A DNA stretch of 64,000 nucleotides from NCBI GenBank assembly GCA_918797485.1, contig CAKKNE010000001.1, positions 2,728,001-2,792,000 of the forward strand. The letters are read 5' to 3'. A program made the translations under genes and the position numbers. This DNA comes from Pelagomonas calceolata (lineage: Eukaryota). This document shows positions 411 through 62,738 of the stretch, piece by piece. The notes under the pieces are model-generated. The model was not told the DNA's origin. It did not search any database and worked only from the letters and a program-made list of their open reading frames with translations. Position 1 is the stretch's first letter; the number at the start of each line of letters is the position of its first letter.

Positions 411-1107
411 GGCTAGATCATTACGATACTTGCGGGCCCCGGCCGCGGCCCGGGCGGGCCGGGAAATCATCGGGACCGGGCCTACCCTAGCTCGCCCCTA
501 GGAAGTTCCCTTCCCCCTTATCCACATACTATCTACATTCAACAGCGCAATTATGACACTTCCTCGCATTACACCACATGAAGTGCTGATCCCTTACGGG
601 GACCCTCCTATGACCTCAGTCGCCAAACCCGCTGGGATGCCGGCAGTGCCATACTGCCGGCCTACCGTTTTCCACAATACTAGTATGGTCTGGGCACGTA
701 ACCTGAAACATGACTTCAACGTGAAGTGAAAGTCAACTTCAAAGGAGTTCAAGTTGATTGTTTTGATGGTTTCCGAACCTGCCAGTGGCCGCTGAGCTTA
801 AAACTCAGCAGCCCGAGGCAGTCGAGGTCACGGTGTAACGTTCCCCGAAATGACACAGGCACACACTTCGGTCCGCGGCACTGACAATCATGATGACTCG
901 GACTCGGAGGTGCACTGTCCGAGTCAACGTGACACCGGTCGTGCTCGGCTGCTTGCTGCCGCGCACGGCGGCGATGGTTCCCTTGGAACCATCTCGTTTA
1001 CCTAGTTAGCGCCTCGCTCGCCCGCTCCGCGAGCTCGGCGCCATCGGCTCACAAGCAAGATACGTCGCTGTATATCTTATATTGTTTTAATCAAAGCTGT
1101 TGTAAGC

Positions 1108-4100
1108 ATGTCCAAAGCCACGGATCCCCCAATAACTTCTGAGAGCAGTGACAACCGGACTCCTCTGCCTGCCCTGGGACAGGCGGAGTGTACCTCAAAT
1201 AAGCACGCCGGTCTCTGGCCGCGGGTGGCAGACGCTCTTTTGCCTAAATGGCCACATGAGCTTGAGGGCGAGAGATGGTTTAGCACAGATGATGCGTATG
1301 TGGACCAGGAGTTCGACCTTGAAGCTCTGCCGTTCTGGCTTCGGGATACAAGTGTGGGCTGGGTTCGAGCACCCAGTCTTAGCTCTCAGTCAGCGCAATC
1401 AGCGAGCTCTGAGATATTAGTCAAGACGAGCATAATAAGTAATGAGGAATTTGTGACAGATGACCAGTCAAATGTACGAAGTGCACAGGCCGTGGAAAAC
1501 ACTGCTCTTGCGGAGTGGAGTGAGACAGCTATTGATGCAATCACAAATGAGCCGCTCCCACAGGTTGTCGTTCTACCACCACAAACTGACAGGGGACCCC
1601 CCCCCCCGGATTCGTTGCCACTTGAGAGGGGTTTTGCTTTGGCGGACCAACCAAATGGGATCGCTACATCATCCAAAGAGCAAGATGAGATTGGAGCATC
1701 GCTGCTTCGGTTGGTGGCAATGTATGCACGTCAGTGCGATCAAAATCGGAATAAACCTTTTCTTTGGGAGGCCATATACCCTCAAGATAGATCAGGAAGG
1801 CCGTGCTATAACCCCGGTGGCAAATACGTCGTAAAAGTCTTTTTTTGTGGCTCATGGCGCAGAGTTCAGATTGATGATCGTGTGCCCATAAATGCACGTG
1901 GACAAGCGACCATCGTGTTCTCGCGCGAGAGGCGCGAGTTGTGGCCATTTATTCTGGCAAAGGCAGCATACAAAGTTGCCCATCTAGCTTATCGGGCGAT
2001 ACCATCAGTAGATGAATCATCTCCACAGGCACTATTTGACTTAGTTGCTATTGCTACGACGGCACTTACGGGCTGGGCCCCGTCTCCCATCCACATACCG
2101 TCGAAGCCAGGTCCTATTGATGCTTTCACAGCACGTCTTACTCAGCGCGGGACACCTGAATGTTCGTTGGCGGAGATTGATTTGGCAAGCACCAACTGTT
2201 TTCCAGGGTCCTCTTTGAATCGACACTCTAAGCCAAGCGGTCGTCGAAGAAGCGGTCAATCCCGTGAAGTGTCAAATGAGATGCTAAATCAAGCATCTAT
2301 GGCACGCAGCACAGCAGCAAGAATGACAAAGAACAAGTTGATGGCGGCACGCGAAGAACTTATTGTGCTCGTAGAAACGACGGAGACTGGTGTTTGTTTA
2401 CATCCTCTCCTTGGGGTTTTGACATATCCCGAAGCCAATTCCGTTAGAACAGATAAAAGAAATATTACGAATTGTTTTGATGCGATACTTGAATGGTCGT
2501 GCGCAAAGTCCGGACTGTCTGACTTTGAATCGGGTCCCCTGACTTTGCCACCTACTACCTTAAGGAAGCCAATTTGCCACATCACTGATCGTTTGAGCAC
2601 GAGTCGCTTGTTGTCCTTTTCAACGCAGTACGGGCTGCCATTCACTGCCGAGCTGCAGAGTTCCTGGGTTGAGTCAGCGAGCGGGGTAGGATTTGTTTCG
2701 CAACCTTTGCGTCAACCTGGAGTACTCCACATAAATACGAGCTGCAACTCCGCCACCTTAGTCGCCTGTATACAAACCAATATACTCACCACGGCACCAT
2801 TGTCGGACGATAGTACCACAGCGGGGCCCCGACCAACCTCAATTCACACCCTACAAACGCGAAGTGCGGTTTTGACTCTCGAGGAGCTGGTGTCTCCTGC
2901 ACAGACATCAGAAGAAGATGGGCGTTTCAAGCAAGAGAATTCGACATTTTGTTGCTCATCCACAGAAAGCCAATCCACAGGTGTGTCCTTGCGGCTCGTA
3001 CAAAAAATCACTGGGCCATATCCATCAAGAAGTGGAATACTTTACGCTCCGCTGGCACCCAAAGGCCGGGCGTATAGGGTCTGTCTAGACGCGCCATTTG
3101 GTGCAGATGTCACTTTTAATTGCACTGCGCCTGTGTCATACAAAACGTTACCACCAGTATGCGAGCAACTTGGTGGTTGGTCGACGTCAGCGAATGGCAC
3201 CTACGATGCTGTCCATACCGACTGCGAAATTGTCGTATTTCAACGTGTCGTTGAGCTGATAAACCCAGTCGTCGACGTTAATGCCCCCGCGGAGACCTCA
3301 AACACTGATGCAAATTGCAAAGAAGAGCAAGTCCCAAAAACTACATCACTGGGATGTTTCCCTGAGACACCTCAATTTATGGATATCGCTCTGGAGCTTT
3401 CGGTCTCGGACCCAACCGCAGCTAATAATATCACGCTCCATACGCTTGACATAGATGAGAATGTCTCGACAACGCACAGCTTGTTGCGGCTCCAAAAAGT
3501 ACGCCTCCGCGAAAGGGGCTTCATTGTTAGTGCCACCCTGCGGGCTCCTAGCAACACACCCATTTCAGCTGGTTCCTGGTCGCTTATTGCTTATTCCGCG
3601 ACTAGTCTCCCCAGGCCACAACTACTACACATAAAAGAGTTAGATGGAGCTGGCACACAAGAAGAAGGCATGACTTACCGCTTTGGGTCTATGTATTCAC
3701 CCAACAAGCACCTGCGGTTATTCCGTGACATCCTTGAGGTTCCACAAGCATGTTTTCCGCTGTCTATAAACCTGGATGTGATCCATACTGAAGATCTGCC
3801 AGTGCGCTTTGTCATTGGTGAATCTACAGAGGAAATAAATCCATCTTCAACTTCTTCGCTCGAAAGAAACAAGGAAACAAGCTTGCGTTCCGCTTCGTGC
3901 GCTTCCTCTATAGTCTTCCCCAGGAAATCTTTTTTGGGAATACGACGTGCGTGCGTGCCTTGTTTCTGGCCCAAGCAAGCTAAGCACGCACCTCGGGATT
4001 CCGGCACTGAAAGACCTGACAAATCACCGGCGAACCTTAACATTGTGCTAGAGGCCAAACTGGACACAAATTTCATTCGTGCGGATGATACTTTGTACTC

Positions 4101-17690: not shown

Positions 17691-19075
17691 CGCATGCGGC
17701 GTCTTTGTGTGTATCTCTCCTCTGGACGCAGCACATATGTCGGGCGCCCACGGCTGGCCCGCGTCGCCGACGCCGAAAAAAAATTGTTATTTTTCGAGCG
17801 CGCCAGACCAGGGGGACCATCCAGGAACAGGGGACGGCACAAACGCGCGTCCCGAGAGGGAGCGTGTTCCCCCTTTTGGGGCAATTAGGGATGAGGCGCA
17901 GAAGCAAATAGTGATATACTGCAAAGAAGGCCGCGGCCAAGAAATAGAAGCCAACTCCCCCGTTTTGAGCGCTGCGCTCCTCCCCCGTAGCCGCGCGCTC
18001 CCATGCAATAATGGTTTACCTATCGTACCTAACTACTAGTTACATCCTACTTTTTCTACTAGCAAAAATTTTTACCTTACCTTAGCTAGCTACAAAAAGC
18101 CATAGGCACAGTATACTATAATAACCTTTGGGGACCTTTGCTAGTAGGTTTTGGTTGGATTAGCGAATTTACCCTGAGTGGGGCACGCGCGTGTCCCATA
18201 CTCCCCCAGACACGTGGGGCGCGCGGATCCTGGGACACGGCGAGTCCAATGCACGGGTTGGTTCCACGTGTAAGTGGAATGACTAATACCCCCCCTATGA
18301 TATGTACCCCTACCTTACTCATATACCCCGGGTCCTAGGACCTACTCCTAATGGATCTTTAAAGATCCATTAGGATACTTCTAGTAAAATAAAAGAAAGA
18401 AGAACTTGAAGAAGAAGGGCCTACTTGTTATAATAATAAGAGTAATAACAAATTAAGGGAACAAGCTCCTCAGATACTTTTTTTTTTTTGTGCTTGGTGC
18501 AGTGTTTGGGAGTGGGGGTGGTTTCTCTCCTCCCGGGTCCCTTGCTTTCTTCCACCGTACCTTATTCTCTCCGGCCGTAGCTCCGAGTCGCGAGGACCCA
18601 TCGCCAGCCCGGGCGGCCTGGGCGGGACGCTGTCGAGGATCTACGGTTCCATGATGGGGGTGCAGAGCGAGATGTATGAATCTTGCTGTCGTCCGTGCTC
18701 ACCAATCATATGGGGAGACATGCCCCAGACTCATCGAGATAAACCCATCGCCGAGAAATGCCGAGAACTCAGGCTTCCGAGTCGGCCTCTCGCGACGCTA
18801 AGATGGTCACTATGGACGTACCAGGGCAGCACACTTGGACGTACCAGGGCAGCAGCGGTGCGGTCACAGCGTTCGCATTTCAGCAGCTCACGCCGAGATT
18901 CCGTGACATGCGCCGCGTTTCACACGGTGACCGACCGAGTCGGCAAGGCGCCTCTACGGACATGCAGAGTTCGCACCCGTGCAGGTGCGTGATAAGCCGC
19001 CGTGCGCCAGGGATTTGTTGGTCTTCTATGGCCATCCGATGCCTTTGCGAGCATGCGGATTCCACACCGTCCTCA

Positions 19076-21317: not shown

Positions 21318-22530
21318 GACGCTAGGAAATGAAACACACTAGAAATGTAATGTGTACGTTACTTCGCGCGCGTCTCGGATTTGTGATATATCGCGCGAGA
21401 AGCCTTTTTTGCAGTGGAAAGCTCTCCGAGTCGAACTTGAACCAAGCAGCGGCACCGTGACCGTGACCCCTCTCTCACCCCCTAGGTCAACTTGAAGTGG
21501 TAGGGCGGCTTCGTTGCGGCGCACGCGGCACTTTGGCGCGATATATATAGACAGTAGGCCCTGCCGATCTGGCGAATGATAGCTCACGACTGCAAATACA
21601 GCCTGAGGCCGGGCCTCCTGAGGTTTTTGTCACCGTGAACCAGGGCCACTTATCCGATCATGATGGGTTATTAACCCCTGGCGCGGCCCGGGGTCATTAA
21701 CCCAGGTAAATACCCGTCAGTGCCGTCAGGAGCTCCAGTTATAGAGGGGCCTGGGCCACGCCGCGCCGTCGGCGGCGCCATGCCTTGGTGCTTGCCTTCA
21801 AGTTGGCGTACCTGCCAGTGCACGGCACGTAATAGTATGCCAAGGGGCTACTTGCGCGCCTCCGCTCGACCCCGTTTAGTGATTAAAGTACCGGGTGGTA
21901 AATAAATGAAAAATAAATAATTAGAAATCGAGGACGGAGGAGGCAGAGCTCCACCTCACGCCGCTTGGCGGCTTTCGCTCCGCGCCTCCAAGGGATAATA
22001 ATAGGTTAATAACGGGCAATTTACAGGCCCTGTCAGCGGGAACCTAGAACCAGGGAAGCGGGGAGGAAGCGGGCAGCTACTAATAGCTTGAGGAACCGCG
22101 GCGGCCGGAAATCAGCGAGTGGCATTTTCACTGTAGTGCCTACCCAATTAATAATTTACGCCTGGGGGATGCCTGACATTCTGCCGGAACATGGGCCCCT
22201 GAAGAAGCGAGGGCCCGGAAGGGCCGCCCATCAGTCTCAGGCCTGCGGCGGCTACAGTGAGTAGGATAGTAAGCACAATACCGTAGATTCCGAGTCGGCG
22301 TAGAATCAACTACTAGGCTTGGTCACGGTGTATGCCCGCTGTGGGCCTCGGATATTCCTCCTTGAGTTATTCAAGTTTGTCTATTTCAAGTTATTATTTA
22401 TTACTACTAGTAATTCGGAGTGACATATCATTTTGGGTGCCCACAATACCCGGGGCCCGCAAAAGCGAAGTAGTATATTGCCCAGGTAAGGTAAAGTGAT
22501 AGTCGCGGTAAGTATCTCCATGAAGGTGAG

Positions 22531-24371: not shown

Positions 24372-25175
24372 TCTTTTGCCTCCGCAAACACCGCACGCGT
24401 TGTGCCGCGCAGACGTGTAAGATACACGCGTAAGTAAGGGCATACTGCGGTAAGTAGTGAGCCTGAGAGGTTACCAGAAACCAGTACAATGACAGCAGAG
24501 TAATTAATTGGGGGATCTTTGTTCTTTGCTCAGTTGTAGCCCATACATAAGGCGTGGCCTGGCTTGACTTGAAGGCCGGCCACTTTGGAAGAGCTAGAAG
24601 GTCACGGTCACGGCCCGGGTTAGCCTCAGGCTCCGAGTCAGGCTGAGGAGCCAGCTTGAGCCCGGGCCAGAACTTGAACAGTTACCGTGACCCGAATGGT
24701 ACTGTGCTACTGGCCTCTAGGCTCCCCTCGAGATTGTGACCGGCCACTGAACCTTCCGAGTCAGCGATATTAGCTTTGGTATGTGCGTGCTTGAATCTAA
24801 TGAGCTGGGTGCAGCAACTTGAAGTGCACAATGCAGCTGTTGTAGCTAGGTCTCTCGGGTGTCAATGTGACACGGAGATACCAACAGGAAGGACTCTCAC
24901 TGAAACGTGAGAGTGTCACGGTGGGAACCCCCTCAACTCTGATAAGACAGAATTAGGGGACACCCCCCGTCTCCCTCCCGGCCCTCCCTTTTTGGTGGCG
25001 GGGCTCTTAGGCCTCCCTTTTTGGTTTCGCCCTTTGGGCGACAACAGAGCAAAAGAATAAAATCCCAACTACTAGTCTGTTGCTATTCCACTATTCCACT
25101 ATTCCACATGCTACTAGACCCTACCAGCTGTAGGACTAGGTAGCATGCTACTACTCGCCACCATCCTTTCCTGCC

Positions 25176-28195: not shown

Positions 28196-28755
28196 AGTAG
28201 TATAGGTCGGTATCTCAAGTGTGCGGAAGCGCAGGCAGGGGTTTACATTGCCCAGCGGCAGCATGCATAAGTATAATATTAGTGTGGTGACCCGCCTAAA
28301 TACTACCCCGTCCCGGCCTAGAACTTTGGCGCAACTTCCGAGTGAGTTAGAGGCGCACCTTGAACAGAGCAGGAAGTCCTTGGCACCAGCGGGTGACTCG
28401 GATGATTGAGGGAAGAGGCCAGACCCTGAGTGATCTTAATCACCACGAAGCCACTGGCACCAGGAAAGAAGTCATCCGACAGCCGCTCTCGCCCCGATTC
28501 GGTTGCTGTGGGCTTAGCAGCGTCGGATATCGTAGAACATCTGCAGCCATCCGTGCCAGAGGTTTGCACGCGCCCACAGCCCCAAAATTTATGGAGATAA
28601 CCCTGTCGCCGAAAAACGGGAGACCATCGAATCTGGTACACGAAGTTGACCAGAGCTCCACTCGGTCGTGACCGGGGCAGCGGCGATGCGGGCTTAACGC
28701 GCGATGCGCCGCTTGGTGCATACTACCTGAGTCTAACTAGTCTACTACTTGTAGT

Positions 28756-29135
28756 CTAGGTTGGCATTAACTGGTTAATAACCGGTAATTTACCCATTAT
28801 CACTCCTCGGAGGGGATCTGGGGTAAATAATCCGGTAAATAACCCGACGGGTTTTCGACTAAACCCGTTTAGTGCGATTAGCGAAAGACCCCTCCGGGCG
28901 AGCGGATGGGCGCAAGCAGCCCGTTGAGCTTTTGGATACGTACAGGTGCGCCAAGGCAAGTACCGAGTCATGTGGCCCGGCGCGGCCCAGGCCCGCGCCA
29001 GTGGCCCGTGAGGCCCCCTCCCCTACCCCTCTATAAGATCTTGAGGTAAATAACCCGCACTAAGCCGCAATTACCCGGGTTATTAACCCCGGGCGGCGCC
29101 AGGGGGAATAACCCCTCAGGTAAATGCCAACCTAG
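28756..29135. mobile_element. hAT-like MITE (380 bp)
   Basis: TIR CTAGGTTGGCATT / AATGCCAACCTAG. Flanking 8-bp TSD is CTTGTAGT (28748-28755) vs CTTGCAGT (29136-29143). Internal subterminal GGTAAATAACCCG-type repeats are present, with a related fragment at 21663-21713. Confidence 0.8.
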
Positions 29136-33906: not shown

Positions 33907-34685
33907 GAAGAGCAAAAAGGTTAGATTCAGAGTCTTCAGCCGCAATATTCATACCTTGTGAGTCTAGGTCCCAGACCATGACAGGGAATCTTATTGAGAA
34001 ATTCGTGTGTTTGCATTGCAACACGTGCTGCTCGAGCTCAGCTAATTAAACTATTTGATGAGATCGATCCGGGCCGGGTGTTTTTCTCCAAGGAAAACCC
34101 TAGACGACCCACCCTAAGGTGAATTTATGATCTATTGTAGACTCGAAGATCTATTGCGAGCTTCAAGTTCAAGTTCCCGAAACCAGGGTGTGATCGCCTA
34201 CTTGATCGCCTAATCCCGAAACCAGGCTACCGTGACTTCATCAGCCTGAGATTAGAGAAGCCTCCGGCCTAATTTGAACCTCGCGCGGTGATACTTATTG
34301 CTCTTCTCTCTTCGGCAACGTCCAAATTCCAACGCCTTCAAGTCGTGCCACCTTTTTGACCGTGACTAATTGAAACTTGAATTCCAAATTCGAGTCTTCA
34401 CCTACCGTGGCAGCTGGGCCGGTCTCAGGCTGTCTAGTGCGCTAGCATTCAAGTTCCAAGGGCCCGAGTGACGGCGAGTCGTCCGGAGCCTGAGTCCCCC
34501 CGGGTGCGAATGTACTTGGGCTGGTCCAATGAGCCCGCGATCATCGTAAAAAGCGCACTAGCCGGGGGGGGGGGGGAACTACCGTAACAGGTACTCAACA
34601 CTGGCACGGTACTCAACTGTTAGGCCCCGCGGCCCCCGCCCCTCAGGCTTGCCGTAAATTTTCAAGTTTTTCGAATAAGGAAATA

Positions 34686-34961
34686 GACCCATTCTCCATG
34701 AGTCCTAATTAAGATGAATTGCCCTGCGAATCTTAATACTGCGTGGAGACTTCGAAATTCACAGGGGGGTCAAGCGAATCATCATCATCATCATGATAGT
34801 CGACGTTGATTTTCAAGTTGATTTGGCGCGCAATGAGCGTCACGGTAATGCCACGCGCCGACCGAATGGCGGGAAACTTTTGCTGAGGCGCAGGTTCCGT
34901 ATGCTAAAATAATGGGCTGTGCAAAGTTTGGTACCATGCGGGCAGCCTGAGCGACGCGGTG
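34686..34961 (+). repeat. Dispersed repeat R3, copy 1 (inverted copy 56672-56935; partial copy about 58815-59000)
   Basis: About 270 bp of colinear similarity, e.g. ATGAGTCCTAATTAAGAT, GGAGACTTCGAA and GGCGGGAAACTT.TGCTGAGGCGCAGGTTCC. Confidence 0.9.
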
Positions 34962-35393
34962 ATGCCGCATGATGCCAGTGGTCCGAGCCTGAGATAAAAA
35001 CCTGCCCCAAAACCCACTGGCAAACTGGAAAATCGCCCGCCGAGCCTGAGACGTATAAATTGAGCCATAATTACGGAAAATTTTCCTAGCGTTCCATATC
35101 AGTGTATGTTGGTTTTTTTCGCCTTGTAGATCATATCCAGGAGCATCTCAAGATTTGTTGAATCGCCGGTCGATTTTAGCGTGGCCCGGGCGCGCAGCGG
35201 ATATCGTCGTCGCGGCTCCTCAGCGCGGACCTTACTAGGCGCCCCCCCCCTCGGAAGAAGTCTGAGCAGCTTTGTTTTTACATAATTTTAATCCATTCCT
35301 GATGCGCTGGGAGCCCACGGAGAAAGTAGCCCAGTGGAGTCTCCCTTCATTCGGTAATAACGTGGTACACGTAACAATACAACAGGATTGATT

Positions 35394-36894
35394 ATGAACG
35401 CAACGAATTTGCAGCCTTCATTACTCGATAAGCGTTCTGCCATTGCCAGTGGTATTCAAGCGCAAGCAAGACGTTGGCTAGCCGGGGGCTCCAAACGGTA
35501 CCTCCGTGCACGAGAAGAAATATGCAAAACTAATTTTGGCATGCTGACGCGCCAGACCATGTTAAGAGTACGAATCAAGATATTTAAGTCTATCGCGAGG
35601 AAAGCCATACATCGATTGGCAGCCCTCAGGGCTGAAGAAGTCTCCAAAATCAGCAGCAATGCGGCCATGAAAGCGATTGACTTTGCTAACAAGACGCTTA
35701 AAGTCACAAAAAGTAGATACGCAGAATTCCTTCGAGTAGAGGCGGGCGCACAATGGATTTCTGACTACCTTTGCGAGCGGATGTCCAAACCGATCTCGAC
35801 TCACATGCGGAAGCTCCTCGCACTCAAACAGAGTGACCAAAATCACAAAATATGTACTCGCCAGTGCCTTGTTTTTTTCGCATAAATAGCAGTGCTTTTC
35901 TTAAGGTCCAACATTACGGGCTGTGCGTGGCCAATCCGGCATGGTTTGTGAGAACTGTGGAGCAGTGGGCGTATTCCAGTTTAGTTGTCTTCCCTGCAAT
36001 GGTTACATAGATGCACCCTCAGGAAAAGTGAATTCGCTTCGATTGCAATGCGCTAGCGCTCTACGCGTCGAAACAATAGGTAGTTCTTTCAAAGCCCCCC
36101 CCCAGGGTGAGCCCCATGCACCTAGATCTCAGGGAGAAGCAAACTTGCACGCAGTTCTCCACAATGCTATTGAGATACTCAGGAGGAGGCTTAAGACTGT
36201 AGTTCCTGAATTCGCTTCATCCATTCTTGCACTTATCAAAACCAAAGGATCTTGGCTTCATTCAAAACGAATATGTGATGACGATCGGATTTACTTCAAG
36301 CAGCGGCTTGAGCAACCTTCATCAGCACGGCGTGCACATCGGCATCGTGGTTTTTTACGTGCCCTTGATGGTGACGTTAAAAACCTCGACAAGGTGACAA
36401 AATGCGGTCTGGCGTACTGCTTTGATCGCTCTTCCGCATGCGACGAACAGCGAGCAAAGGAAGTTTTGCTTAACTATTGCATGGACCCAAGGGCAGGCAA
36501 GCGCAATATTCATAGCCACAAAGGATGGGTTGATATTACCTCCACCTATAAAATGTGGTCAACAACTGGCCTTCATGCTGCAAGGGAAAGTATTCGGCTA
36601 GAACACTGTTTGAAACTACAGGCTAGCTGGAGCAAGTTTCAAGGGAAATCCATGAGGCATCAACGTGAGAGTTGTGCCCATTTCCTGTCAATTATCATGC
36701 GTGAGCTAAAGAATGAAGCTGAACGTGAGTTTTTATGCATCGATAATGCCCAAGATAGCTCTTACCAGAAGCATGTTAAAATGGTGGAGATAGAGAAAGC
36801 ACGCTTTGAAGCGGCTGATCGGATCATGCGATTGCTTGCCGAGTACAGGGCAATAAGTTCATTGGAACAATTCAAATATCTTCATATTTCGTGA
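35394..36894 (+). CDS. Hypothetical protein (IQ-like motif, Cys cluster), at least one intron
   Basis: Two long adjacent plus-strand ORFs (165 and 323 aa) separated by an intron-sized gap. Contains IQAQARRW and CENC motifs. Start uncertain. Confidence 0.55.
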
Positions 36895-37989
36895 TGACAC
36901 TGGTGGAGAAAAGCATGACTATTTTAGGTTCAAGTTATCAAACCCGAGCTTGGTGTTTTTCCTTCCTAGATTGAACATCGAGGTATTAGTTAGCTGGATA
37001 CCAAGAATGCCCTCAAGATGCGCCTAGATGTCCCAGTCTCGTCGGGTGATGGCAGTCAATACGCACTAGTGCTGACCTAGTTCGTAAATCGTGGGTTTGT
37101 CAATTAAGCAATCTCAGACCCCGCGCCGAGGAAAGCAGTTTGCCACTAGCATTCGGAGGCTTGTACGGTGAAAGATCAGAAAAATTTCCGCCGTGACTAG
37201 ATTAATCTGCTCATTTAAAATTACTAGTGTCGTATGAATAGTAATCATAAACTGAAGCAGGAGAGAGGGCGGATTAAACTGAAGCCTGACCCTGACTCGG
37301 AGCCCGAGGGTCTCGAGTCTGTGCCGAATTCGCTTTAGGCCGTGACCGTGACCGTGACCGTGACTAGTAGATCGCGTTCCGAGTCTGCTGCAGCGGCGGC
37401 GATTGAAAAAGTAACCCCTGCCTGCCAGTCCAGTCTCGGACAGGGCAGAGTACTTCTCGATGGCACTCTACAAACGACTCGGCCAGCGGCCAAGTGGCCG
37501 GGAACACGAATCTGCGAATTATCACGCACCACTCCTCTCGGTCTGTGCGCGCACCGCGCGCACCGAATTGGCAGGGCGCAGATATTACTTGTAGCGACGT
37601 CCCTGCCAGGCTTTTGGGCTGCCCACGGCGTTGCGGTCGCGCAGTCCGGCCTAAATAAAGCCTCGTTTCGGTCACCCACGCAGTCGCCCCATTAGGGCTC
37701 GCCCGACCCACCCACCCAAAACGTTGTACTGCAGGGGAAGGGGTACGCGGCCGCTCAAAACACGTGCGACGGATCAAGGAGTAGAGGAACAACACACCAC
37801 CTGACCGAGGTCGCGGATCGCCGTGATTCCATGCGCGGACGGTTTATTTCGCTACAGTGCCTATCGTGCCCTCGGCGGGGCTTCAAGGTTTTCAAGTTTG
37901 TAGTCCGCGAGAATCAGACAGCCATGCGCCCGCGGTGTGAAAGGGTGGTTCGAGGGGCGCGTCGCGATAGGAGATACGCCCAACGCCGG

Positions 37990-39154: not shown

Positions 39155-39699
39155 TTCTCATACATACCTGATGGTCATTGGACTGATGTACATTCTCGAC
39201 TTCTCCCTTTGTCTGCAATGAAATAAAAGAATGCCAGCTATTTTGGACTGCAGGAGTCTTTTTCCGCGACCTAAATCTGGATGCGCGAGAAGAGCTTTTC
39301 GAGAGTCCGAGAAGAGCTTTTTTCGAGAGCAGCGCAATCATGATGGTGGTCTTAGGTGGCCAAGGCCAAGGACAGGGCAGGCAGGCCCGTTTTCAATTAA
39401 TGCCTACTAGTAGAATAAACTTGAAAACATTTTTTGGGGGTGTGGTGGTGTGGGGGTTCTGTGGGGGTGTCGACTACTAATATTGGGGAGATTATCGGGA
39501 AAATTACCCCGGGGGGAAATAGGTCACCGTCACCGTGCACTGGCAGTGTGTAATTCCACTGGCCCAGGACCCCCCGGCGGGCACGCGGACCCGCGTAGTC
39601 TAGCGAAATAGGGCGTCCCATGTTTCAGAGCGTCTGCGACGGGAGATGATCCCGTAATTGCAGTGGCTCATCGATGTCTGTCCTCGGGCCTCAGGCTCT

Positions 39700-39752
39700 T
39701 ATCATCATCATCATATTTATCGCAATCATCATCATCATCATCATCATCATCA
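39700..39752. repeat. (ATC)n microsatellite
   Basis: Two ATC runs. Confidence 0.9.
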
Positions 39753-40230
39753 TTCACACTATATTTGAGTGTCCAAAATTGGACGACGTCAGAGGAGATT
39801 TCCTCCAGAAACTAGAAACGATCTTCCTCCAGAAACTTCAAGTTGAACTAGAAACGAACGCCGCGACGGATTGTTTGGCTTTATTAATGGGAGATGACCC
39901 GCCCCAGGAGATTGAGAATTCGCTCTATCGTTTCTTGACGTCTCTTTTCAAGCGCCGACTGGGTATCCTAGCCGCGCAGGGAGAAGGCCTCTAGAGATCT
40001 CCGAGTCTCTAGAGGCTCGGTGCTCCGCCGAGTCCTTCAAGTTCAAGTTTTCCTTTAGGATATTCCTTCCTTAATTATATATTAGAAATAGTTGTTAGTT
40101 CTCTGATTGTTGTTGGAAGTACTATAGTGTGTTCCCAGGGGTCTTTTGCTTTTGGCCGGTTTAAATTTTTTCAAGGTTGGCGCGTAGGCTATTGCGCGCC
40201 AGCTCCGCTCGGTGTAGGAATACATTGAGC

Positions 40231-43200: not shown

Positions 43201-46200
43201 GAAGCACGGTCATCACTCGTGTGCTCACTCCAGAGAGGTTGGCACCCACTTGAGTGTACTAAAGATAAGGCCAATGTTACAGAGATTAAGACATCAACTA
43301 TTTTGGGGCGTTGGGTGCCTATTAGTGCTGATATTTCCCAGGTTAATGCGGCCGCATATACAGAGCAAGTTCAAACAGCCATTTCCGTGAACGTTTCCTC
43401 TCCCTGGAACGCAAGTTCCATTCTTGAGATCGCAGTCGATCTCGGGGATCTCTGTGCGACGTCAGTATCGCCTGTCTGGGGGGGGGCATCGACAGTACAT
43501 CCTGAACAGTGGAAGTCGCTCACTCTGAGGGTGGTAGGCGCGTGTGGTGCTGTCGCATCGGCGTCAAAGATGGCCTTAGGGTTTCTGGTACCTCGACTGA
43601 AATTACCAGTGGCACTCTCTGTCTGGCAGACAGTACAAGGGGGGTCCAGACTTGCAGCCAAAGTCCGGGCCGGACTGCCATGTTGCACGACATGTGCTCC
43701 CCTAGCACCAACACTAAGCTGGGTTAAAGTAGCGGGGAAATCGAATCAATTCACCGCCATTGAAGACCCATACCTCGCAGGTGAGTACGAGCGAGCGCTA
43801 AAAAACCGACCCGCCGCCTTCGAACTAGATTCTAAACGCGAAAAACAGCAGAATGCTGATATCGGCTTTCTACGTATCGCCATTAATCCCGTTGCCATTG
43901 CTGTGCGGGCGTTCTCTGCGCTCCCGCGGTTCCTTCAGGCACGAGCTGACGGCGAAGGGAAGGTCCAACTTGACTTTCGGATTGTTAGTAGTAATTTTGG
44001 CAGGACAATGCTGCCCGCTCGCTCATTTTCTCTTTGTAGCAATCGTGTTGACGAACAGGCTCCCCAGACTCCTGGTTTTGGCAATGCAGCATCGGCACTG
44101 CGGCCTGAACAACTTCGGTCATTAACTTGGATGCAGCGCATGGAGGCAACATGTGAGCCCTTTATTGAGGAAGAAGTTGTAGATGAAGCTCTTTCTGTTC
44201 TTGGCTGGCGAGCAGAAGCTCGTGTGCAAATTCCTGTTGTGGTCCGAGGGGGTGTGCTTGCAGATGCGGTTGGCTATGGAAAAACTGCAATTACGCTTGC
44301 ATTGATTGACGCGCAGTGGCGAGACCAAGCCCCAGAGCTCCCTCCACACCTCTTGGGCAAGGCTATTCCCTGTAAGGCCACTCTCGTTATCGTACCTAAG
44401 CACCTCATGGCACAGTGGCCAAGTGAGCTAAGAAAATTCCTCGGTGATCGCTACAAGTGCCTTACGATTATGAGTGTCGGTGATCTAATGCGGCTTACAA
44501 TCCCAAAAGTTCTCGATGCGGAAATCATTATCATGTCGGTGCAGACTTTCAGATCAAAGGCGTATTTTGATCATCTTGCTGAATTTGCCGCGGTCCATGC
44601 TTTCCCGAGCAAGGGTGGGCGGTACTTTGAGGAGGTTCATAGTCGGGCTCTCCAAAACATAGAAAAGTATGTTTCCGCGTTTCAAGCTTCTGGCCAAGCA
44701 GGTCTTGATTCCATGCGAAAGGCTGATAAAAAATCCCTGAGGGTGACACTAGCTGTGAATACTAGTAAGAAGCAAGCCTACGAGAGCGGGGTGCCCCTGC
44801 GGGGGGCGCGTGAATCCAAGGTTGCGCAGAGAAAAAAGTCATCGCCCAGTGTTGTGGAATACTTTTCGTCGGATGATAGTGAACAAGAAGAAAAGGCCTT
44901 TGTCAAACCGAGGGTGGAGTCGGTACGCACTAAGCGCCCTGGTCCAAAGGCACCACCTCTTGAAATGTTTTATTTTGCCCGAAAAGTCGTGGATGAGTAT
45001 ACATACTTGGACCATCGTGATGTTCCAACTGTACAAGCCATCAAGGCACGTTGCTCGTGGGTTCTATCTGGCACCCCACCACTCGAGTCCTTCGATGACG
45101 TTAAGGGCATAGCAGCATACTTGGGAGTGCATCTTGGGGCGAGCAATCCTGTGGTACTCACCAAAAAAGGTGATCGTCCAACTGATTCGCGTAAGGAACT
45201 GTCCAAGTCAGAGCTGTTTCAGGAGTTCTTGGAAGCGAAGTCCCAGTCGTGGCATGCGCGTCGCCAGGATGTTGCACAGAGATTTTTGGACAGATTTGTA
45301 AGACAAAATGTAGCTGAAATAGATGAGATTCGCTTTCAAGCAACAATACAACGGGTAGTTATGCCTGCACCGGACCGTGCTGTGTATTTAGAGCTTGAGC
45401 ATCATCTCCATGCACTCGAAATGCAGAAGGTAAAGGCCGCAGCACGTGGTAAGAAGAAATTCCGTGATAAGAGTGATCGGGAGACCAGACTTTCAGAGGC
45501 TCTGGAAGGGAGCGCCGATGCTGAGGAGGCGCTCCTGAAACGATGTGCACGCCCAGCCTCGGCCCCCAATACGATAATGAATGGTAGTAGTGGCGACGGC
45601 AGCGATGTTACAGCCTGTTCTAACGTTGTGTCTAAGCGCGCTGCGGAGCTGGAGAATTGTGCAACTCAAATTGTCAGGGAGGTTGCTGCAGCACATCGCG
45701 TTGAGGAGGAGATTCGGCGTTGGGCTGCAGTGAGTATGTCCAGGCCTCTCAATGGAGACCGAGGGTGTGATAATATTTTCAAAAAGCACGGGAACAGCAT
45801 GTGGCAAGTTGATGGAGAAAAGAATGCTCGCGGACGGACCAAAAAAAAAGATAAACCTGGCAAACCATTCGATAAATTTACGGGTCACCAACATATGCGC
45901 GAGTGGTGGAACGAGCTAAATCAGGGAATTGGTGACAGTGATGCATCGGCCCAGTTGCTTGCGCTGGCTGCCGAAGGCCTAGCCATTGCAAGTCATAGTC
46001 TTAAAGGCGAGTCACATGAATTTGCATCTGGTATCGTACGTAGTCCCGAAGTAAGAAGAAGATTAGACGCACAGACCCGTCCTGAGATCATCAAGGCAAC
46101 CCGTTGTGTAGATCTTGTCTTTCCTGAACCAATTATTGAGGGCGAATCTGCTCCCGTGAGAAAACAACGGGATGACACTCTCAAAGAGCTTTTCTGGGCT

Positions 46201-47091
46201 CTGCGAAACCAAGTGTATGAACTACGAGCCTTGAACAAAGAGTACGTGGGCAGGACACGTTCCCTCCGATTCTTTCGGGCCATCGAGCAAGCTCAAAGAG
46301 AGTTTGTTGCTTCACAGCCGTTTTCATCATCTGATCAGGCGACTAACGTACAGATTCCACTCACCAATCGAGCCATCTTTTCATGCTGCGGTCATGTTGG
46401 CGAAACCTCAAAGATGCGTGCAGCAGCAGCCCGAGAGGAATGTCCAGCAGCTGGATGCCACGCAAATGTGCGCTCTCATTCTGTTGTGGAATGCGCATCG
46501 CTTTGCCTTAATGAAAGCAACTCAAATGCCAAGGCGGTCACTCATCATGGTGCCAAGCTTGCAGAAATCATAGATCTCGTGAGTGGTTTCCCAAAGGATG
46601 AGCGGGTCCTCATATTTGTTCAATTTGAGGATCTCCTGACCCAAGTACATGCTGTCCTCACTAAGGAGGGTTTCCCAGCGCTGAAGCTAAAAGGTACAGC
46701 TCATCAAATGTCGGCCATAATGTCAAAATTTCAAAAAGCGAAGTTGGGAAAGAATGATGAGCGCATACTTCTTCTAGAACTCCACAACGAGTCTGCATCT
46801 GGTGCGAACCTAACTGCTGCAAATCATGTGATCTTTGTGCACCCACTTCACGTAAGATGCACAGTCTTCCCCTAGTCTCATTTTTATCTTGATTCTTCTC
46901 CCTCTGAAAGTTGATTTACACAGGTCAAGACCTTACAGAATTACGTCATGTGTGAGACTCAGGCCATAGGGCGTGTTCGTCGTTATGGACAGCGGAAAAT
47001 TGTCCATCTTTACCGGTTCCTCGTCGATGACTCGATTGACATCAAAATATACAAACGTCGATGTGATGAGCAGGCAAAGCGTTTTCGTTGA
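40231..47091 (+). CDS. DNMT5: DNMT5-type C5 cytosine DNA methyltransferase fused to an SNF2 ATPase; introns 46852-46923 and probably 42920-43036
   Basis: MTase motifs LRVATMCSGTEAP, AGTSCVDYS, LENV, YYLPQTRTRGY and GNAMSTTVVG. SNF2 motifs GGVLADAVGYGKT, VVDEYTY, WVLSGTP, SGANLTAANHVIFVHP and QAIGRVRRYGQ. Confidence 0.95.
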
Positions 47092-47757: not shown

Positions 47758-49713
47758 TATTGTTATGACGAAAATGATTTATGCTTTTTGAGTGTGTGTG
47801 TTCAACTTGCTTCAAGCCTGAGATATACACCAATTTGCCTGGTCGTTCCCAATTTGAGTCCATGCTTATTACGGGCCAGTGCTATTCTATTAGTCTTTTT
47901 TCTTTGTTTTGGTACTGTGGCTGTTGTAGCAACAAGTTTCGAAATACATGGTGACAATCTTCCACAATCGAGCATCGAAACTCGCTTGACTTGAGGTCCG
48001 TTAGTTTTTTTTTCAGACGCGGCATTTTGCAATGAGAACGGGACGTTGCTAGCTATTTGCCGTTCTAGCGCGTCTGGAAACCTGGCAGAATATTTCCCTG
48101 CGATCTTTTGTCGGCGTGTCGTACGAGCAATGTCAGACTTGGGAAGAATCATCTCAGCCCTAACCTCGAAGTCATTTGTCATTGGCCAAGTCGCTTTGTT
48201 TCAAGTTGTCCTGCATGTCAGTCTCTATGTCACTCATATTCTATCTTCACCCACCTCGACTTGATCAACCATTGGCGCCGCAGACAGTTTGCACCGTGCC
48301 CCGCCGCTTGATTCTTCATTTCAAAGATTTTCATTTCATGCACCAAACTGCGGTACTAGCACGTTCTGCGGTACCTACGGTACCGTACCGCAGTAGGTCT
48401 GTGGCTTACCAGCTTGTACTTGTACTGCGGCATGTACCCGGGCCCGATACTATTTATCGTCACGTTCCTTCCTTTGGGACGCCAGCCACTCTGTCCGACC
48501 GTGACTGAGTCGCAGGCCCGGGCGTTTTGACCCCCCCCTCCAAACGTTGTCTAGGCAGTTTCATTACATTACAGGTAGTCAGCGGAAGATGAACAGCTTG
48601 TAATCCGTCACGGTGTGTACGTCAGCGCGCGGGCATCCTCGTGCAAAACACTTAGTCTACGTCGTGGTCGCGGGCAGCCGGGCGACGCAATGCCGAAAAC
48701 GCGGCAGCAAACGAATCCCTTCTCGCCGAGAAACGGCCAAAAACCATGAAAAAAGACTTGCGATCGCCTTTTTTGGCGCAGTTTCGAGCCGATCGGGCCA
48801 CCGCAGTGTCGGATATCATCGTCCGTGTGACCGCCGACGATCTGAGACAAAAAGCAGGGCGAATATCGCGCTGAATGTCTAGGACTTTTTGTTGTATGCC
48901 TTCCCAGCCACCACGGCGGGCATATGCGGGGATTCGGCAGCTGGCGCTCCAACAGCTGCTGAAGTCAATTCCCCTTCAATATTATTATTTTTAGAGGCAG
49001 CCTGAGCCAAACTCCCCAGTCATCAGGCAGCCTCGCAGCCCGCTGTGGTGCACCACAGAGCCACTTTCCGGGCATTCGAGCAGCTGAGTGATGCAACCCT
49101 GCTTCGAGTATAAAAAGGCCCAAACGCACGCGACCGCGGCGGCCGCCACTGGCATCCTCAATTACTTTTGTGCGGGTGCCAGACAATATATTCGACCTCT
49201 TCTCTTTGGTTCGAAGTGGCAGTGCCAGTGGTCACGCTTAGGGCCTCAGGCTCGGGCGCGTCGCCACTACGTGGGTTCCGAGCCTGAGTCCGCCGAGTCG
49301 ACGGTGACTCGGACTCGGACGACTGGCACTTTTAAGTTGACCCCGTTTCATTGCTGCGAGCTCGTACGCTCGTGCATCTTTACGCGAGATTTCAGTACGT
49401 TTATGCGCGTGATTTATACCGCAGTAATAAACTAGGTAAACTACCTACGGTACCTACGGTACCTACGAGTAGAAGGTACAAGCCGCCCCCGTTGTAGACG
49501 CAAAAATCTAACGCGTAGACTTTGCTTTACCGTGCGTACTTCGCGCCGGCCGCCAGTGCATCGCCCTAACCAAACAAAAAGCGTGTCGTTGCTGTGGGCG
49601 AACGCATCGCTGTTTGGAGCAGCCTGATGAGCACATAAAGGCCGTAGAGCTAAGACAAGAAAAATCAATAGGCGATTGAGCCCCGAGCCTCCAGAGCGTT
49701 TAGCGCTAGTTGT

Positions 49714-56671: not shown

Positions 56672-56935
56672 CACCGCGTCGCAGCTGCTTTCTCAGCGCG
56701 AGGCTGCCCGCATGGTACCGAACTTTTGCAGCCTATTATTCTTAGCATATGGAACCTGCGCCTCAGCACAAGTTTCCCGCCATTTGGCCGGCGCGTGGCT
56801 GCACGCGCAATGCGCGCCACAAAATCAAAATCAAAGTCGACTATTTGCTTGACCCCCTATAAAATTCGAAGTCTCCAAGGAGTCTTAAGATTAGCAGGGT
56901 AATTTATCTTAATTAGGACTCATGGCGGATGGGTC
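56672..56935 (-). repeat. Dispersed repeat R3, copy 2
   Basis: Reverse-complement match to 34686-34961. Confidence 0.9.
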
Positions 56936-62135: not shown

Positions 62136-62197
62136 GGTCCAGAGAATGCTCAGTGACATACTGCGTGGTCCAGAGAATGCTCAGTGACATACTGCGT
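62136..62197. repeat. Tandem duplication of a ~31-bp unit
   Basis: GGTCCAGAGAATGCTCAGTGACATACTGCGT x2. A similar 30-bp x2 duplication sits at about 58368-58428. Confidence 0.85.
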
Positions 62198-62738
62198 GTT
62201 CACCTCGCTCTCGGTGGGCTCGTGGCCCACCACGAACGGCTCGCCGGCGGGTCCGACTCGGAGTCCCCCTAATTTCAAGTGAGCCTGAGCCTCTGAGATC
62301 ATTCGAGTTCCCTGCCACTTGGTGGCGGCGATTTTCTGGCTACGGGGTCCCAAAGGGTCCCTTTCTATGGCGCCGGGACCGGGGGGAAGGGGCCACCTTG
62401 AAAAATAACTATAGTCAATTCGGGTTTTGGGGTTACGGCCTCGGCCTAGCTAGCTTTGGTTCCTGCGGTTGCGTAGGTCAGTAGGATAGGATAGCCAGGA
62501 TCTGGCCTGGGGAGGGTTTTCGGGGGAGTCCCCCGCGAGCGTGTACGTGAGCTTGCTGCCGGTCGTAGAAGCGTGCGTCGTCGTCGCCGTGCCCGGGCCG
62601 CCGACGAGCCGGAGGCCGTCGATCTTGATCCGGGCGTACTCGCGCGCCGTCTAAGGGGCTTTGCCATCAGATTCTGGTGCTAACGTGCGGGTATTTCAGG
62701 CGCCTCTAGAGATCTCTAGAGGGCCAGCTCAATAAGCG

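What the first reader, a model, noticed from the sequence alone, without database searches (positions are those of the whole stretch)
442..62289. Window-wide insertion grammar: any dinucleotide XY is expanded to XY-C-revcomp(XY)-G-XY (candidate stereotyped transposon-excision/repair footprint)
SEEN: the over-represented intergenic words all follow one rule. They are AT-CATG-AT (887, 21657, 34790, 53662), TT-CAAG-TT/AA-CTTG-AA (748, 24671, 34162, 34812, 40036), GT-CACG-GT/AC-CGTG-AC (827, 12513, 21454, 24601, 34839), AG-CCTG-AG/CT-CAGG-CT (21600, 24460, 34242, 49245, 59222), GA-CTCG-GA/TC-CGAG-TC (895, 10846, 12528, 37295, 49306), CA-CTGG-CA/TG-CCAG-TG (12507, 34600, 53461, 58866), TA-CTAG-TA (678, 22405, 59367), GG-CCCG-GG (447, 24612, 53638), GC-CGCG-GC and CG-CCGG-CG (62242). 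All 10 strand-symmetric dinucleotide classes occur. My rough by-eye tally is over 100 hits, nearly all non-coding, against about 16 expected for 16 octamers in 64 kb at uniform composition. Independent TF motifs would not share such a rule. ESTABLISHED: hAT and CACTA/EnSpm transposases form hairpins on flanking DNA whose opening leaves short inverted (P-like) nucleotides, and some CMC/EnSpm elements make 2-bp TSDs. INFERENCE: an element inserted as XY[C...G]XY excises leaving XY-C-rc(XY) on the left and rc(XY)-G-XY on the right, and these join through the 2-nt microhomology to give a fixed 6-nt scar. An alternative is a 2-nt-stagger nuclease (Spo11/TopoVI-like) with templated repair, but that does not explain the invariant C and G. 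I do not know of a description of this pattern at such density.
Basis: partly seen in the sequence, partly recalled or inferred. Interest (0 to 1): 0.95.

Follow-up and report, generated by a model that had tools for sequence, protein, structure and literature searches.

The report
Rule-based six-base scars in Pelagomonas
The DNA between genes of this abundant marine alga (Pelagomonas calceolata) is peppered with one rule-bound six-base insertion that can hit any two-base site and differs between wild strains; it is likely the scar that a cut-and-paste jumping gene leaves when it departs, though that jumping gene was not found.

Summary
The 16 octamers XY-C-rc(XY)-G-XY occur 140 times in 64 kb. 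Markov models predict 16-18, and the 15 control rules with other centre letters give 14-49. All 16 dinucleotides occur, and 123 of 140 hits lie outside long ORFs.

Among ten metagenome contigs of the same species, 12 of 14 six-base indels (11 of 13 distinct sites) are exactly XY versus XY-C-rc(XY)-G-XY. None fits any other centre letters. Four insert alleles are singletons and no 'absent' allele is, so these are insertions. A second region showed the same at 48999. Nine nested events appear in the window against 0-1 in controls. A repeat copy carries three such insertions that its paralogue lacks.

The organism is Pelagomonas calceolata, and the window's 50% GC fits its low-GC, putatively centromeric regions. 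The papers I searched do not mention the pattern.

The mechanism is inferred. A transposon with 2-bp target duplication and 5'-C...G-3' ends, excised through flank hairpins capped by one transposon C, gives exactly this product. No such element was found in the window or the loci, and the whole genome was not available. The product is also unusually uniform for end joining.

The parts
442..62599 (.). Field of 140 octamers XY-C-rc(XY)-G-XY. They are strand-symmetric and clustered in intergenic DNA.
34162..35451 (.). Densest cluster, with 22 octamers in 1.3 kb upstream of the gene that starts near 35388.
21425..22412 (.). Cluster of 15 octamers downstream of the minus-strand DRC (NYD-SP28) gene.
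24460..24922 (.). Cluster of 11 octamers between divergent genes (DRC gene and Cse1/exportin-2).
47815..49319 (.). Cluster of 13 octamers. The one at 48999 (AGCCTGAG) is polymorphic.
34812..34819 (.). TTCAAGTT. The 6-nt insert is present in the window only and absent from 10 of 10 loci. It is also absent from the paralogous repeat copy at 56701-56935.
34944..34951 (.). AGCCTGAG. The insert is in the window, L001 and L002, and absent from L003-L010.
34973..34980 (.). TGCCAGTG. The insert is in the window and L004-L008, and absent from 5 loci.
35015..35022 (.). CACTGGCA. The insert is in the window and 5 loci, and absent from L004-L008.
37294..37301 (.). GACTCGGA. The insert is in the window, L001 and L002, and absent from 7 loci.
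39405..39412 (.). TACTAGTA. The insert is in the window, L002 and L009, and absent from 4 loci.
39837..39844 (.). TTCAAGTT. The insert is in the window only and absent from the 2 loci that cover the site.
48999..49006 (.). AGCCTGAG. Six letters are left out here in contigs of 3 of 4 metagenome runs.
   Evidence: table 4
37345..37364 (.). Three units in tandem, (ACCGTG)3AC. This is one of 8 in-phase adjacent pairs in the window.
34686..34948 (-). Repeat copy paralogous to 56701-56935. It carries rule-conforming insertions at AT (34790), TT/AA (34812) and GT/AC (34839) that the other copy lacks.

Best explanation
The octamers are 6-bp insertions at plain dinucleotides (shown), and they are most likely scars left by excision of a not yet identified cut-and-paste DNA transposon that would make 2-bp target-site duplications and have 5'-C...G-3' ends (inferred). 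The inferred steps are as follows. The element inserts at any dinucleotide, giving XY[C.....G]XY. On excision the transposase nicks the non-transferred strand one base inside the element. The flank 3'-OH then attacks the opposite strand at the element border, so each flank is sealed as a hairpin whose tip is the single element base C (XY-C-Y'X'). A host nuclease opens each hairpin two bases 3' of the tip. This leaves 3' tails that end in Y'X' on one side and XY on the other. Because the duplication is 2 bp, these tails always pair. A one-base fill-in opposite each C and ligation then give XY-C-Y'X'-G-XY. The following points are shown by calls: the insertion nature, the rule, the lack of target preference, the near-restriction to DNA outside long ORFs, and the presence of singleton insert alleles in wild populations. 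The element, the hairpin and the opening position are all inferred.
For: (1) The events are insertions. Of 14 six-nt indels between the window and ten same-species metagenome loci, 12 are XY versus XY-C-rc(XY)-G-XY. That is 11 of 13 distinct sites. None fits any of the other 15 centre-letter rules. (2) Polarity. Four insert alleles are singletons (29149 in L001, 34748 in L009, 34812 and 39837 in the window). No 'absent' allele is a singleton. A second region gave a 6-letter omission at the octamer at 48999 in 3 of 4 runs. (3) A repeat copy has three such insertions that its paralogue lacks. (4) Iterative removal uncovers 9 nested events against 0-1 for the 15 control rules. The process therefore acts on any dinucleotide, including ones it created itself. 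(5) XY use follows the background, with ratios of 0.31-1.41 across all 10 strand-symmetric classes. This means no target sequence is needed. (6) The invariant C and G are absent from the short allele, and the flanks carry no conserved base, so these letters must be brought in. The first and last base of a transposon is the simplest source. The middle dinucleotide is the inverted flank, with only one base between the direct and inverted copies. I argue from established chemistry, not from a call, that a turn this tight fits a covalent hairpin better than polymerase fold-back. (7) Flank hairpins are documented for hAT, Transib, RAG and MULE transposases, with host opening and end joining (passages of PMC5499845). 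(8) An active CMC-supergroup element with a 2-bp TSD and TIRs starting CACGG exists in a fungus (passages). (9) One clean 3-base variant, CTG to CTG-C-CAG-G-CTG, is seen in L006 and L007. This would fit a family whose duplication is occasionally 3 bp.
Against: No donor element was seen. A scan for inverted repeats gave a TSD-length distribution of 861, 399, 78, 27, 4 ... for lengths 0, 1, 2, 3, 4 ..., falling by roughly 2- to 7-fold per added base, which I read as about what chance gives, though no control was run. Its one C...G, 2-bp candidate (39755-40131) has only a 9-nt TIR. None of the large polymorphic insertions has a 2-bp TSD with C...G ends. One is a MITE with an 8-bp TSD and one is a 3-kb element with a 4-bp TSD. 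Of 45 indels of 7 nt or more, only one can be written XY[C..G]XY, and it looks like two nested scars. The genome paper reports few repeats, with 8% masked and no accumulation of transposons in the low-GC regions. The stored part of its annotation table shows only one DDE transposase under the terms I searched, a Tc1-like one (the file was cut when stored). The product is strictly uniform. Variants with no inverted copy, one inverted base, two inverted copies or a 2-base loop are not enriched. That is unusual for end-joining scars. Eight in-phase tandem pairs are more than my rough estimate of about 2 for random re-insertion.
Confidence: 0.55

Rival explanations
1. A transposon-independent break-and-repair pathway. 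A sequence-independent nuclease would cut at any dinucleotide with a 2-nt stagger. Candidates are a domesticated hairpin-forming transposase or a Spo11/TopoVI-like enzyme acting in the low-GC, putatively centromeric regions. Each 3' end would gain one fixed C, for example from a Rev1-like dCMP transferase, before hairpin sealing and joining.
For: No donor element was found. The genome is repeat-poor. The product is fully uniform. The window's 50% GC fits the special low-GC regions of this genome.
Against: No known pathway adds exactly one C to each strand and then inverts exactly two flank bases. A Spo11-type fill-in would give XY-XY or XY-CG-XY, and those forms are not enriched (XY-CG-XY gives 247 hits and ranks 13th of 16). 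This rival needs more untested steps than the transposon model.
Confidence: 0.2
2. A polymerase template-switch mutation, either Pol-theta-type templated insertion or intra-fork strand switching. It would copy the dinucleotide backwards and then forwards.
For: Templated insertions that include reverse-complement copies of flanks are a known outcome of such repair. This is recalled knowledge, not from a call. The events are small and occur in non-coding DNA.
Against: It does not explain the invariant C and G, which are not in the short allele or the flanks. XY-rc(XY)-XY without the two letters is not enriched (300 hits against a mean of 279). Such processes give variable lengths, whereas only the 2-base form is enriched.
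Confidence: 0.08
3. Hexanucleotide microsatellites of self-complementary units, (XY-C-Y'X'-G)n, that grow and shrink by slippage. The octamers would be 1.33-copy remnants.
For: Eight in-phase tandem pairs and one triple are present. The microsatellites (ATC)n and (GAT)n sit next to ATCATGAT.
Against: By my reading of the allele contexts printed, at all 11 distinct polymorphic sites the short allele has a single XY and no unit. One site (34671) lies next to an existing octamer but out of phase. Slippage cannot create the first unit, nor can it explain one rule holding across 16 different units.
Confidence: 0.04
4. Selected regulatory or structural motifs, such as protein-binding sites or nucleosome-positioning words, kept in intergenic DNA.
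For: The hits are concentrated next to genes.
Against: Sixteen different words sharing only an abstract rule cannot be one binding site. The flanks are not conserved. Seven of the 43 window octamers in the compared region are present or absent among strains by a clean 6-nt indel. One-mismatch derivatives are only about 1.5-fold over expectation, which fits neutral decay.
Confidence: 0.03

Closest known systems
Excision footprints of flank-hairpin transposons (hAT such as Ac/Ds and Hermes, Transib, MULE) and P nucleotides of V(D)J coding joints
   Same: In both cases an inverted copy of the flanking bases lies directly next to the flank and is framed by the duplicated target. The accepted origin is a covalent hairpin on the flanking DNA that is opened off-centre and then joined by end joining (passages of PMC5499845). 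Opening 2 nt 3' of the tip by Artemis is recalled knowledge, not from a call.
   Different: Here the duplication is only 2 bp. One fixed base (C) sits at the turn. The outcome is a single product rather than a spectrum. The scars reach about 4 per kb of non-coding DNA. No element was found. In Hermes the first nick is recalled to lie one base into the flank, whereas this model needs it one base inside the element.
Canonical Tc1/mariner footprints (TA-CAG/CTG-TA of Sleeping Beauty; TACATGTA of Tc1)
   Same: Both involve a 2-bp duplication, a short stereotyped scar of fixed length, C...G outer letters, and accumulation of identical scars in non-coding DNA. Other windows of this scan noted such accumulation (unchecked AI notes).
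   Different: The target here is any dinucleotide. TA accounts for 7 of 140 hits, a ratio of 0.92 to background. The inner two bases are copied from the flank, not from the transposon end. For TA the scar is TACTAGTA, not TACATGTA.
CMC supergroup (CACTA/EnSpm, Mirage, Chapaev, CNEST)
   Same: These elements have 2-3-bp target duplications and termini of the form 5'-CAC...GTG-3'. CNEST of Cryptococcus makes 2-bp duplications and has TIRs beginning CACGG (passages). One 3-base variant of the scar was seen here.
   Different: CNEST duplicates TA only. No CMC excision chemistry or scar was described in what I read. No CMC transposase or TIR was seen in this window or in the loci.
7-bp palindromic scars at TNA sites in a fungal window of this scan (note e1-7835225)
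   Same: That note describes a rule-based insertion that is half direct copy and half inverted copy of the neighbouring bases, at high density in non-coding DNA, with the donor element not found (an unchecked AI note).
   Different: I did not test it.

Membership tests
Excision footprint of a cut-and-paste DNA transposon (flank-hairpin type) | The scar is extra DNA relative to an empty allele at the same site. | tested here: met
   11 distinct polymorphic sites show XY against the octamer, plus 48999 and a paralogue comparison.
Excision footprint of a cut-and-paste DNA transposon (flank-hairpin type) | The scar is framed by a direct duplication of the target. | tested here: met
   XY is present on both sides in all 140 octamers by definition. 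At the polymorphic sites the short allele holds a single XY.
Excision footprint of a cut-and-paste DNA transposon (flank-hairpin type) | Palindromic (P-type) bases are present: an inverted copy of the flank. | tested here: met
   Only rc(XY) in the middle is enriched. The count is 140, against 20 per 16 words for other NN.
Excision footprint of a cut-and-paste DNA transposon (flank-hairpin type) | A donor element exists with the same duplication length and matching end bases. | tested here: not met
   None was found in the 64-kb window, in 13 loci or among the polymorphic insertions. The whole genome could not be searched.
Excision footprint of a cut-and-paste DNA transposon (flank-hairpin type) | End joining gives a spectrum of related scars. 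| tested here: not met
   Shorter, longer and 2-base-loop variants are not enriched. Only one product is seen.
Tc1/mariner footprint | The target and duplication are TA. | tested here: not met
   All 16 dinucleotides are used, and TA accounts for 7 of 140.
Tc1/mariner footprint | The scar interior is made of transposon-end bases and is the same at every site. | tested here: not met
   The inner dinucleotide varies with the flank.
CMC supergroup transposon (CACTA/Mirage/Chapaev) | The target duplication is 2-3 bp. | tested here: inconclusive
   It is inferred from the scar (2 bases; one 3-base case). No inserted element was seen.
CMC supergroup transposon (CACTA/Mirage/Chapaev) | The termini are 5'-CAC...GTG-3' and the element has a CMC-type DDE transposase. 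| not testable with these tools
   Only the first and last letters (C, G) can be read from the scar. No genome is held.
Hexanucleotide microsatellite | Alleles differ by the gain or loss of units within an existing array. | tested here: not met
   By my reading of the allele contexts printed, the short allele has no unit at all 11 distinct polymorphic sites.

The most novel reading that the evidence does not exclude
These are not transposon scars at all. They come from an undescribed, sequence-independent insertional mutation pathway: a hairpin-forming nuclease with a fixed one-C addition on each strand. It writes a deterministic 6-bp palindromic insertion at any dinucleotide, is active today in wild Pelagomonas, and continually adds new DNA to the low-GC, centromere-linked regions.
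Probability: 0.2. Interest if true: 0.95.

Novelty: new variant of a known kind. Interest (0 to 1): 0.8.

Why it matters
If these are transposon scars, they are a dense natural record of thousands of insert-and-leave events by an element with no target preference. The host is one of the most abundant eukaryotes in the ocean, and its genome looks repeat-poor. Repeat content would then greatly understate transposon activity there. The scar's exactness would also report how a stramenopile opens and joins DNA hairpins, predicted here as 2 bases from the tip with 2-base pairing.

Intact scars already make up about 3% of the window's non-coding DNA: 148 events of 6 bp in 28.4 kb. They create new short palindromes. 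Searches suggest that they seed ATC/GAT microsatellites. The presence or absence of individual scars gives clean markers for population genomics of this alga.

If no transposon exists, this is a new mutational mechanism.

Tried and rejected
- **Whole genome.** It is not held. I therefore could not count scars in the GC-rich arms or search genome-wide for the element.
- **Literature.** A word search for the octamers themselves gave only chance hits in primer and sequence lists. Searches on excision footprints, hairpins and 2-bp target sites, and on genome-wide over-represented palindromic footprints, gave no description of this rule. The Pelagomonas genome paper has no occurrence of 'palindrom' in its main text, and none of 'palindrom', 'motif' or 'insertion' in its supplementary notes, files 1 and 2. 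File 4 was cut when stored and file 5 is unreadable.
- **Other word lengths.** W = 1, 3 and 4 show no enrichment in window counts.
- **Alternative products.** XY-CG-XY, scars with one inverted base, scars with two inverted copies, 2-base loops and XY-rc-XY are not enriched.
- **Inverted-repeat scan for elements with a 2-bp TSD and C...G ends.** It returned only what looked like chance-level matches, though I ran no control. The best candidate, 39755-40131, has a 9-nt TIR and was rejected.
- **345-bp block at 35100-35139 in L004-L008.** It can be written AT[C...G]AT but has no TIR and sits in a complex multi-allele region, so I rejected it.
- **Indels of 7 nt or more.** One of 45 fits XY[C..G]XY, and it looks like a nested double scar with one C replaced by T.
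- **Locus at 28730-28755.** I tried to derive the window allele from the L006 allele by two rule-conforming insertions. This failed.
- **Divergent-clade loci L011-L013** (about 86% nucleotide identity). They hold 1-4 octamers, which is not above controls. I suspect they are mostly transcribed sequence. They say nothing either way.
- **Introner-type MITEs with 8-bp duplications.** One is at 28756-29135, and the Aureococcus introner shown in PMC9860276 adds 8 bp from its TSD (passages). They cannot give this scar, because the two hairpin tails would not pair.
- **The 28-nt palindrome of the L007 element.** It has no match in viral contigs.
Full report
**Observation**

I counted the 16 octamers of the form XY-C-rc(XY)-G-XY in the window. 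There are 140, with 3-19 per dinucleotide.

- The same template with the other 15 pairs of centre letters gives 14-49 hits. The highest, C/C with 49, owes 22 hits to the ATC microsatellite word ATCATCAT.
- Keeping C and G but replacing the middle by any dinucleotide other than rc(XY) gives 303 hits over 240 words, or 20 per 16 words.
- Markov simulations of order 1 and order 3, 40 each, give 16.2 +/- 4.4 and 17.9 +/- 4.0 with a maximum of 28.
- The rule holds only for two-base words. One-, three- and four-base versions are not enriched in window counts.
- No base outside the octamer is conserved. There is only a mild G/C preference at the two adjoining positions by my own tally of the counts. 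The hits are therefore not copies of a larger repeat.
- 123 of 140 hits lie outside ORFs of 150 codons or more. The density is 4.33 per kb there against 0.48 per kb inside, and control rules give 6-42 in the same non-coding part.
- The hits cluster in intergenic stretches of every kind: upstream, downstream, divergent and convergent.

**What the window is**

The ORFs encode eukaryotic proteins. They include Rpb2 in pieces, exportin-2/Cse1, eIF3h, an AP-complex mu subunit, a flagellar DRC protein, and a DNMT5-like C5-methylase joined to an SNF2 domain. No tRNA was found.

Exact look-up of several predicted proteins placed them in clusters that include a protein named as Pelagomonas calceolata, on a contig of 6,277,007 bases. 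The stretch is held by many marine metagenome runs.

The genome paper describes one region of 52% GC, about 259 kb long, in each chromosome of a 63% GC genome. It takes these regions as centromeric. It says that no accumulation of repeats or transposons was seen there, and that genes there are longer and intergenic DNA more extensive (passages and Supplementary Note 4). The window has 50% GC and therefore fits such a region. That is my inference from composition. I have no coordinates.

**The decisive test: are they 6-nt indels?**

A protein of the window brought in 13 metagenome loci. Ten are the same species at 93-99% nucleotide identity and together cover window positions 25.8-47.5 kb. Alignments summed to 133,176 columns with 1,360 mismatches.

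I parsed every alignment gap and found 167 indel events.

| Indel length | Events |
|---|---|
| 1 nt | 58 |
| 2 nt | 15 |
| 3 nt | 14 |
| 4 nt | 12 |
| 5 nt | 9 |
| 6 nt | 14 |
| 7 nt or more | 45 |

- Of the 14 six-nt events, 12 are exactly XY in the short allele against XY-C-rc(XY)-G-XY in the long allele.
- The other two are a TAGAAA tandem duplication and one unclassified event.
- None of the 14 fits any other centre-letter rule.
- Two of the 12 are one site aligned in two ways (34944 and 34947), so 11 of 13 distinct sites follow the rule.
- No 2-nt or 4-nt indel was assigned the C/G form of the zero- or one-base version of the rule.

The long allele is sometimes in the window (7 sites) and sometimes in a locus (4 sites). 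In four cases the insert is in a single sequence: 29149 in L001, 34748 in L009, and 34812 and 39837 in the window. In no case is the absence a singleton. I read this as insertions, some of them likely recent.

Of the 43 window octamers in the compared region, 7 are polymorphic in this clean way. All ten loci show the same excess of octamers, with 26-43 hits against control medians of 3-8.

In a second region not covered by the loci, contigs of three of four metagenome runs leave out six letters at 48999, where the window has AGCCTGAG. Several other contigs there differ from the window by exactly six gap letters. Their positions were not listed in the truncated table.

**Further internal evidence**

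- A 265-bp repeat has two copies in the window. The copy at 34686-34948 carries insertions at AT (34790), TT/AA (34812) and GT/AC (34839) that the copy at 56701-56935 lacks. The first of these was extended by a GAT run.
- Removing all octamer inserts and scanning again uncovers 8 and then 1 further conforming octamers. The 15 control rules give 0-1. The process therefore also hits dinucleotides inside earlier scars.
- There are eight in-phase tandem pairs.
- Dinucleotide use follows the non-coding background. Ratios run from 0.90 to 1.41 for eight classes. They are lower for CC/GG (0.67), CG (0.35) and GC (0.31).
- One-mismatch relatives of the octamers are about 1.5-fold over expectation. This suggests that older scars decay.

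**How it most likely works**

Four facts constrain the mechanism.

- The short allele has only XY.
- The long allele adds an inverted copy and a second direct copy of XY.
- One C separates XY from its inverted copy, and one G separates the inverted copy from the second XY. By symmetry that is one C on each strand.
- Neither letter is present in the flanks.

A direct copy and an inverted copy separated by a single base fit a covalent hairpin better than polymerase fold-back. This is my argument from established chemistry, not from a call. Flank hairpins are the documented excision intermediate of hAT, Transib, MULE and RAG enzymes, and host factors open and join them (passages).

I worked the geometry through as follows.

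1. An element inserts as XY[C...G]XY.
2. The non-transferred strand is nicked one base inside the element.
3. The flank 3'-OH attacks the other strand at the element border. This gives the hairpins XY-C-Y'X' on the left and, on the other strand, Y'X'-C-XY on the right.
4. Opening two bases 3' of the tip gives 3' tails ending in Y'X' and XY. (This is the position I recall for Artemis, not from a call.)
5. With a 2-bp duplication these tails always pair.
6. One-base fill-in opposite each C, followed by ligation, yields XY-C-Y'X'-G-XY and nothing else.

It explains the rule, the fixed length, the fixed letters and the strand symmetry.

Most eukaryotic cut-and-paste families have 5'-C...G-3' ends (recalled knowledge). 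An active CMC-supergroup element with 2-bp duplications and TIRs beginning CACGG has been described in Cryptococcus (passages). One clean three-base version, CTG to CTG-C-CAG-G-CTG in L006 and L007, would fit an element whose duplication is sometimes 3 bp.

**What speaks against it**

- I found no such element. An inverted-repeat scan of the window gave a duplication-length distribution that I read as roughly chance-like, though I ran no control. Its one C...G, 2-bp candidate has only a 9-nt inverted repeat.
- The large polymorphic insertions are of other kinds. They are a 380-bp MITE with an 8-bp duplication, a 3-kb element with a 4-bp duplication and 28-nt palindromic ends, and several indels without transposon features.
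- Of 45 indels of 7 nt or more, only one can be written XY[C..G]XY, and it looks like two nested scars.
- The genome is described as repeat-poor, with 8% masked in one paper and about 6% in another. The stored part of the annotation table shows a single DDE transposase, Tc1-like, under the terms I searched (the file was cut when stored).
- The product is strictly uniform. Variants expected from sloppier opening or joining are not enriched.

I therefore hold the transposon model at about 0.55. A transposon-free nuclease-and-repair pathway is at about 0.2. The remaining rivals (polymerase template switching, slippage, selected motifs) are low, for the reasons given under Rival explanations.

**Comparison with what is known**

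The scars work like flank-hairpin footprints and V(D)J P nucleotides, and in their stereotypy they resemble Tc1/mariner canonical footprints.

- They are not Tc1/mariner scars. The target is any dinucleotide and the interior comes from the flank.
- Membership in the hAT/Transib/MULE type of footprint is met for three defining features: insertion, framing duplication and inverted flank bases. It is not met for two: a donor element in view, and a spectrum of products.
- Membership in the CMC supergroup cannot be tested without the genome.

Earlier notes of this scan describe TACATGTA scars at TA sites in animals and a 7-bp half-direct, half-inverted scar at TNA sites in a fungus. These are unchecked AI notes. 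They show the general theme but not this rule.

I found no description of this rule in my literature searches or in the Pelagomonas papers as far as I could read them. Some supplements were cut, unreadable or closed.

**Verdict**

It is shown here to be an insertion process, and singleton insert alleles suggest it is still active in natural populations of a globally abundant alga. The mechanism is a well-fitting inference that lacks its key witness, the element itself. I rate it a new variant of a known kind, with a real chance of being something new.

Noticed in passing
window 28756-29135: This is a polymorphic 380-bp MITE with 13-nt inverted ends (CTAGGTTGGCATT) and an 8-bp target duplication (CTTGTAGT/CTTGCAGT). 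It is absent from L006, L007 and from contigs of two metagenome runs. Its contig depth is about 23 times the single-copy level. It is probably of the introner or hAT-like kind known from pelagophytes.
   Followed up: partly
L007 11158-14171 (inserted at window 37076-37079); also L007 8374-8401 (window 34625): A 3-kb insertion has a 4-bp duplication (CCTA). Both of its ends are the same perfect 28-nt palindrome. It carries a DUF285 leucine-rich-repeat gene and a 193-aa ORF with a weak ADP-ribosyltransferase-like hit. The same 28-nt palindrome occurs alone in that strain, with a CCCC duplication. It has no match in viral contigs.
   Followed up: partly
window 18346-18375; 62703-62722; 39988-40015: These are small perfect palindromes. 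One of 30 nt is flanked by TAC on both sides. One of 20 nt reads CCTCTAGAGATCTCTAGAGG. A related copy carries the scar TCCGAGTC in its centre and is polymorphic by 18 nt. They may be minimal TIR-TIR elements.
   Followed up: no
window 28727-28729 versus L006 2948-2958 and L007 2927-2937: A three-base version of the rule appears as a clean polymorphism: CTG in the window against CTG-C-CAG-G-CTG in two loci. The window also holds four three-base-rule 11-mers, which is not above the controls.
   Followed up: partly
window 34778-34797, 39703-39755 and elsewhere: ATC/GAT microsatellites abut ATCATGAT scars. ATCATCAT is the most frequent 8-mer of the window, with 22 copies. In the paralogue comparison a GAT run grew out of a new ATCATGAT. 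The scars may therefore seed trinucleotide repeats.
   Followed up: partly
window 40177-46875 (+): A 2,232-codon ORF joins a C5 cytosine methyltransferase domain to an SNF2 helicase domain, which is a DNMT5-like architecture. It lies inside the scar-rich region.
   Followed up: no
window 48388-49441: A segment of about 1.05 kb is skipped by some metagenome contigs. It is bounded by CTACGGTACC-type direct repeats, so it is likely a deletion or insertion through those repeats rather than a transposon.
   Followed up: partly
window 37414-37912; 35101-35138; 34062-34154: These are further structural differences between strains. A 499-bp segment is absent from L005-L008. A 38-bp stretch is replaced by about 345 bp in L004-L008, and that block itself holds five scars. 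A 93-bp segment is absent from L009 and L010.
   Followed up: partly
whole window: The GC content is 50%. This fits the 52% GC, putatively centromeric region that the Pelagomonas genome paper reports once per chromosome. Whether the scars are confined to these regions could not be tested.
   Followed up: no
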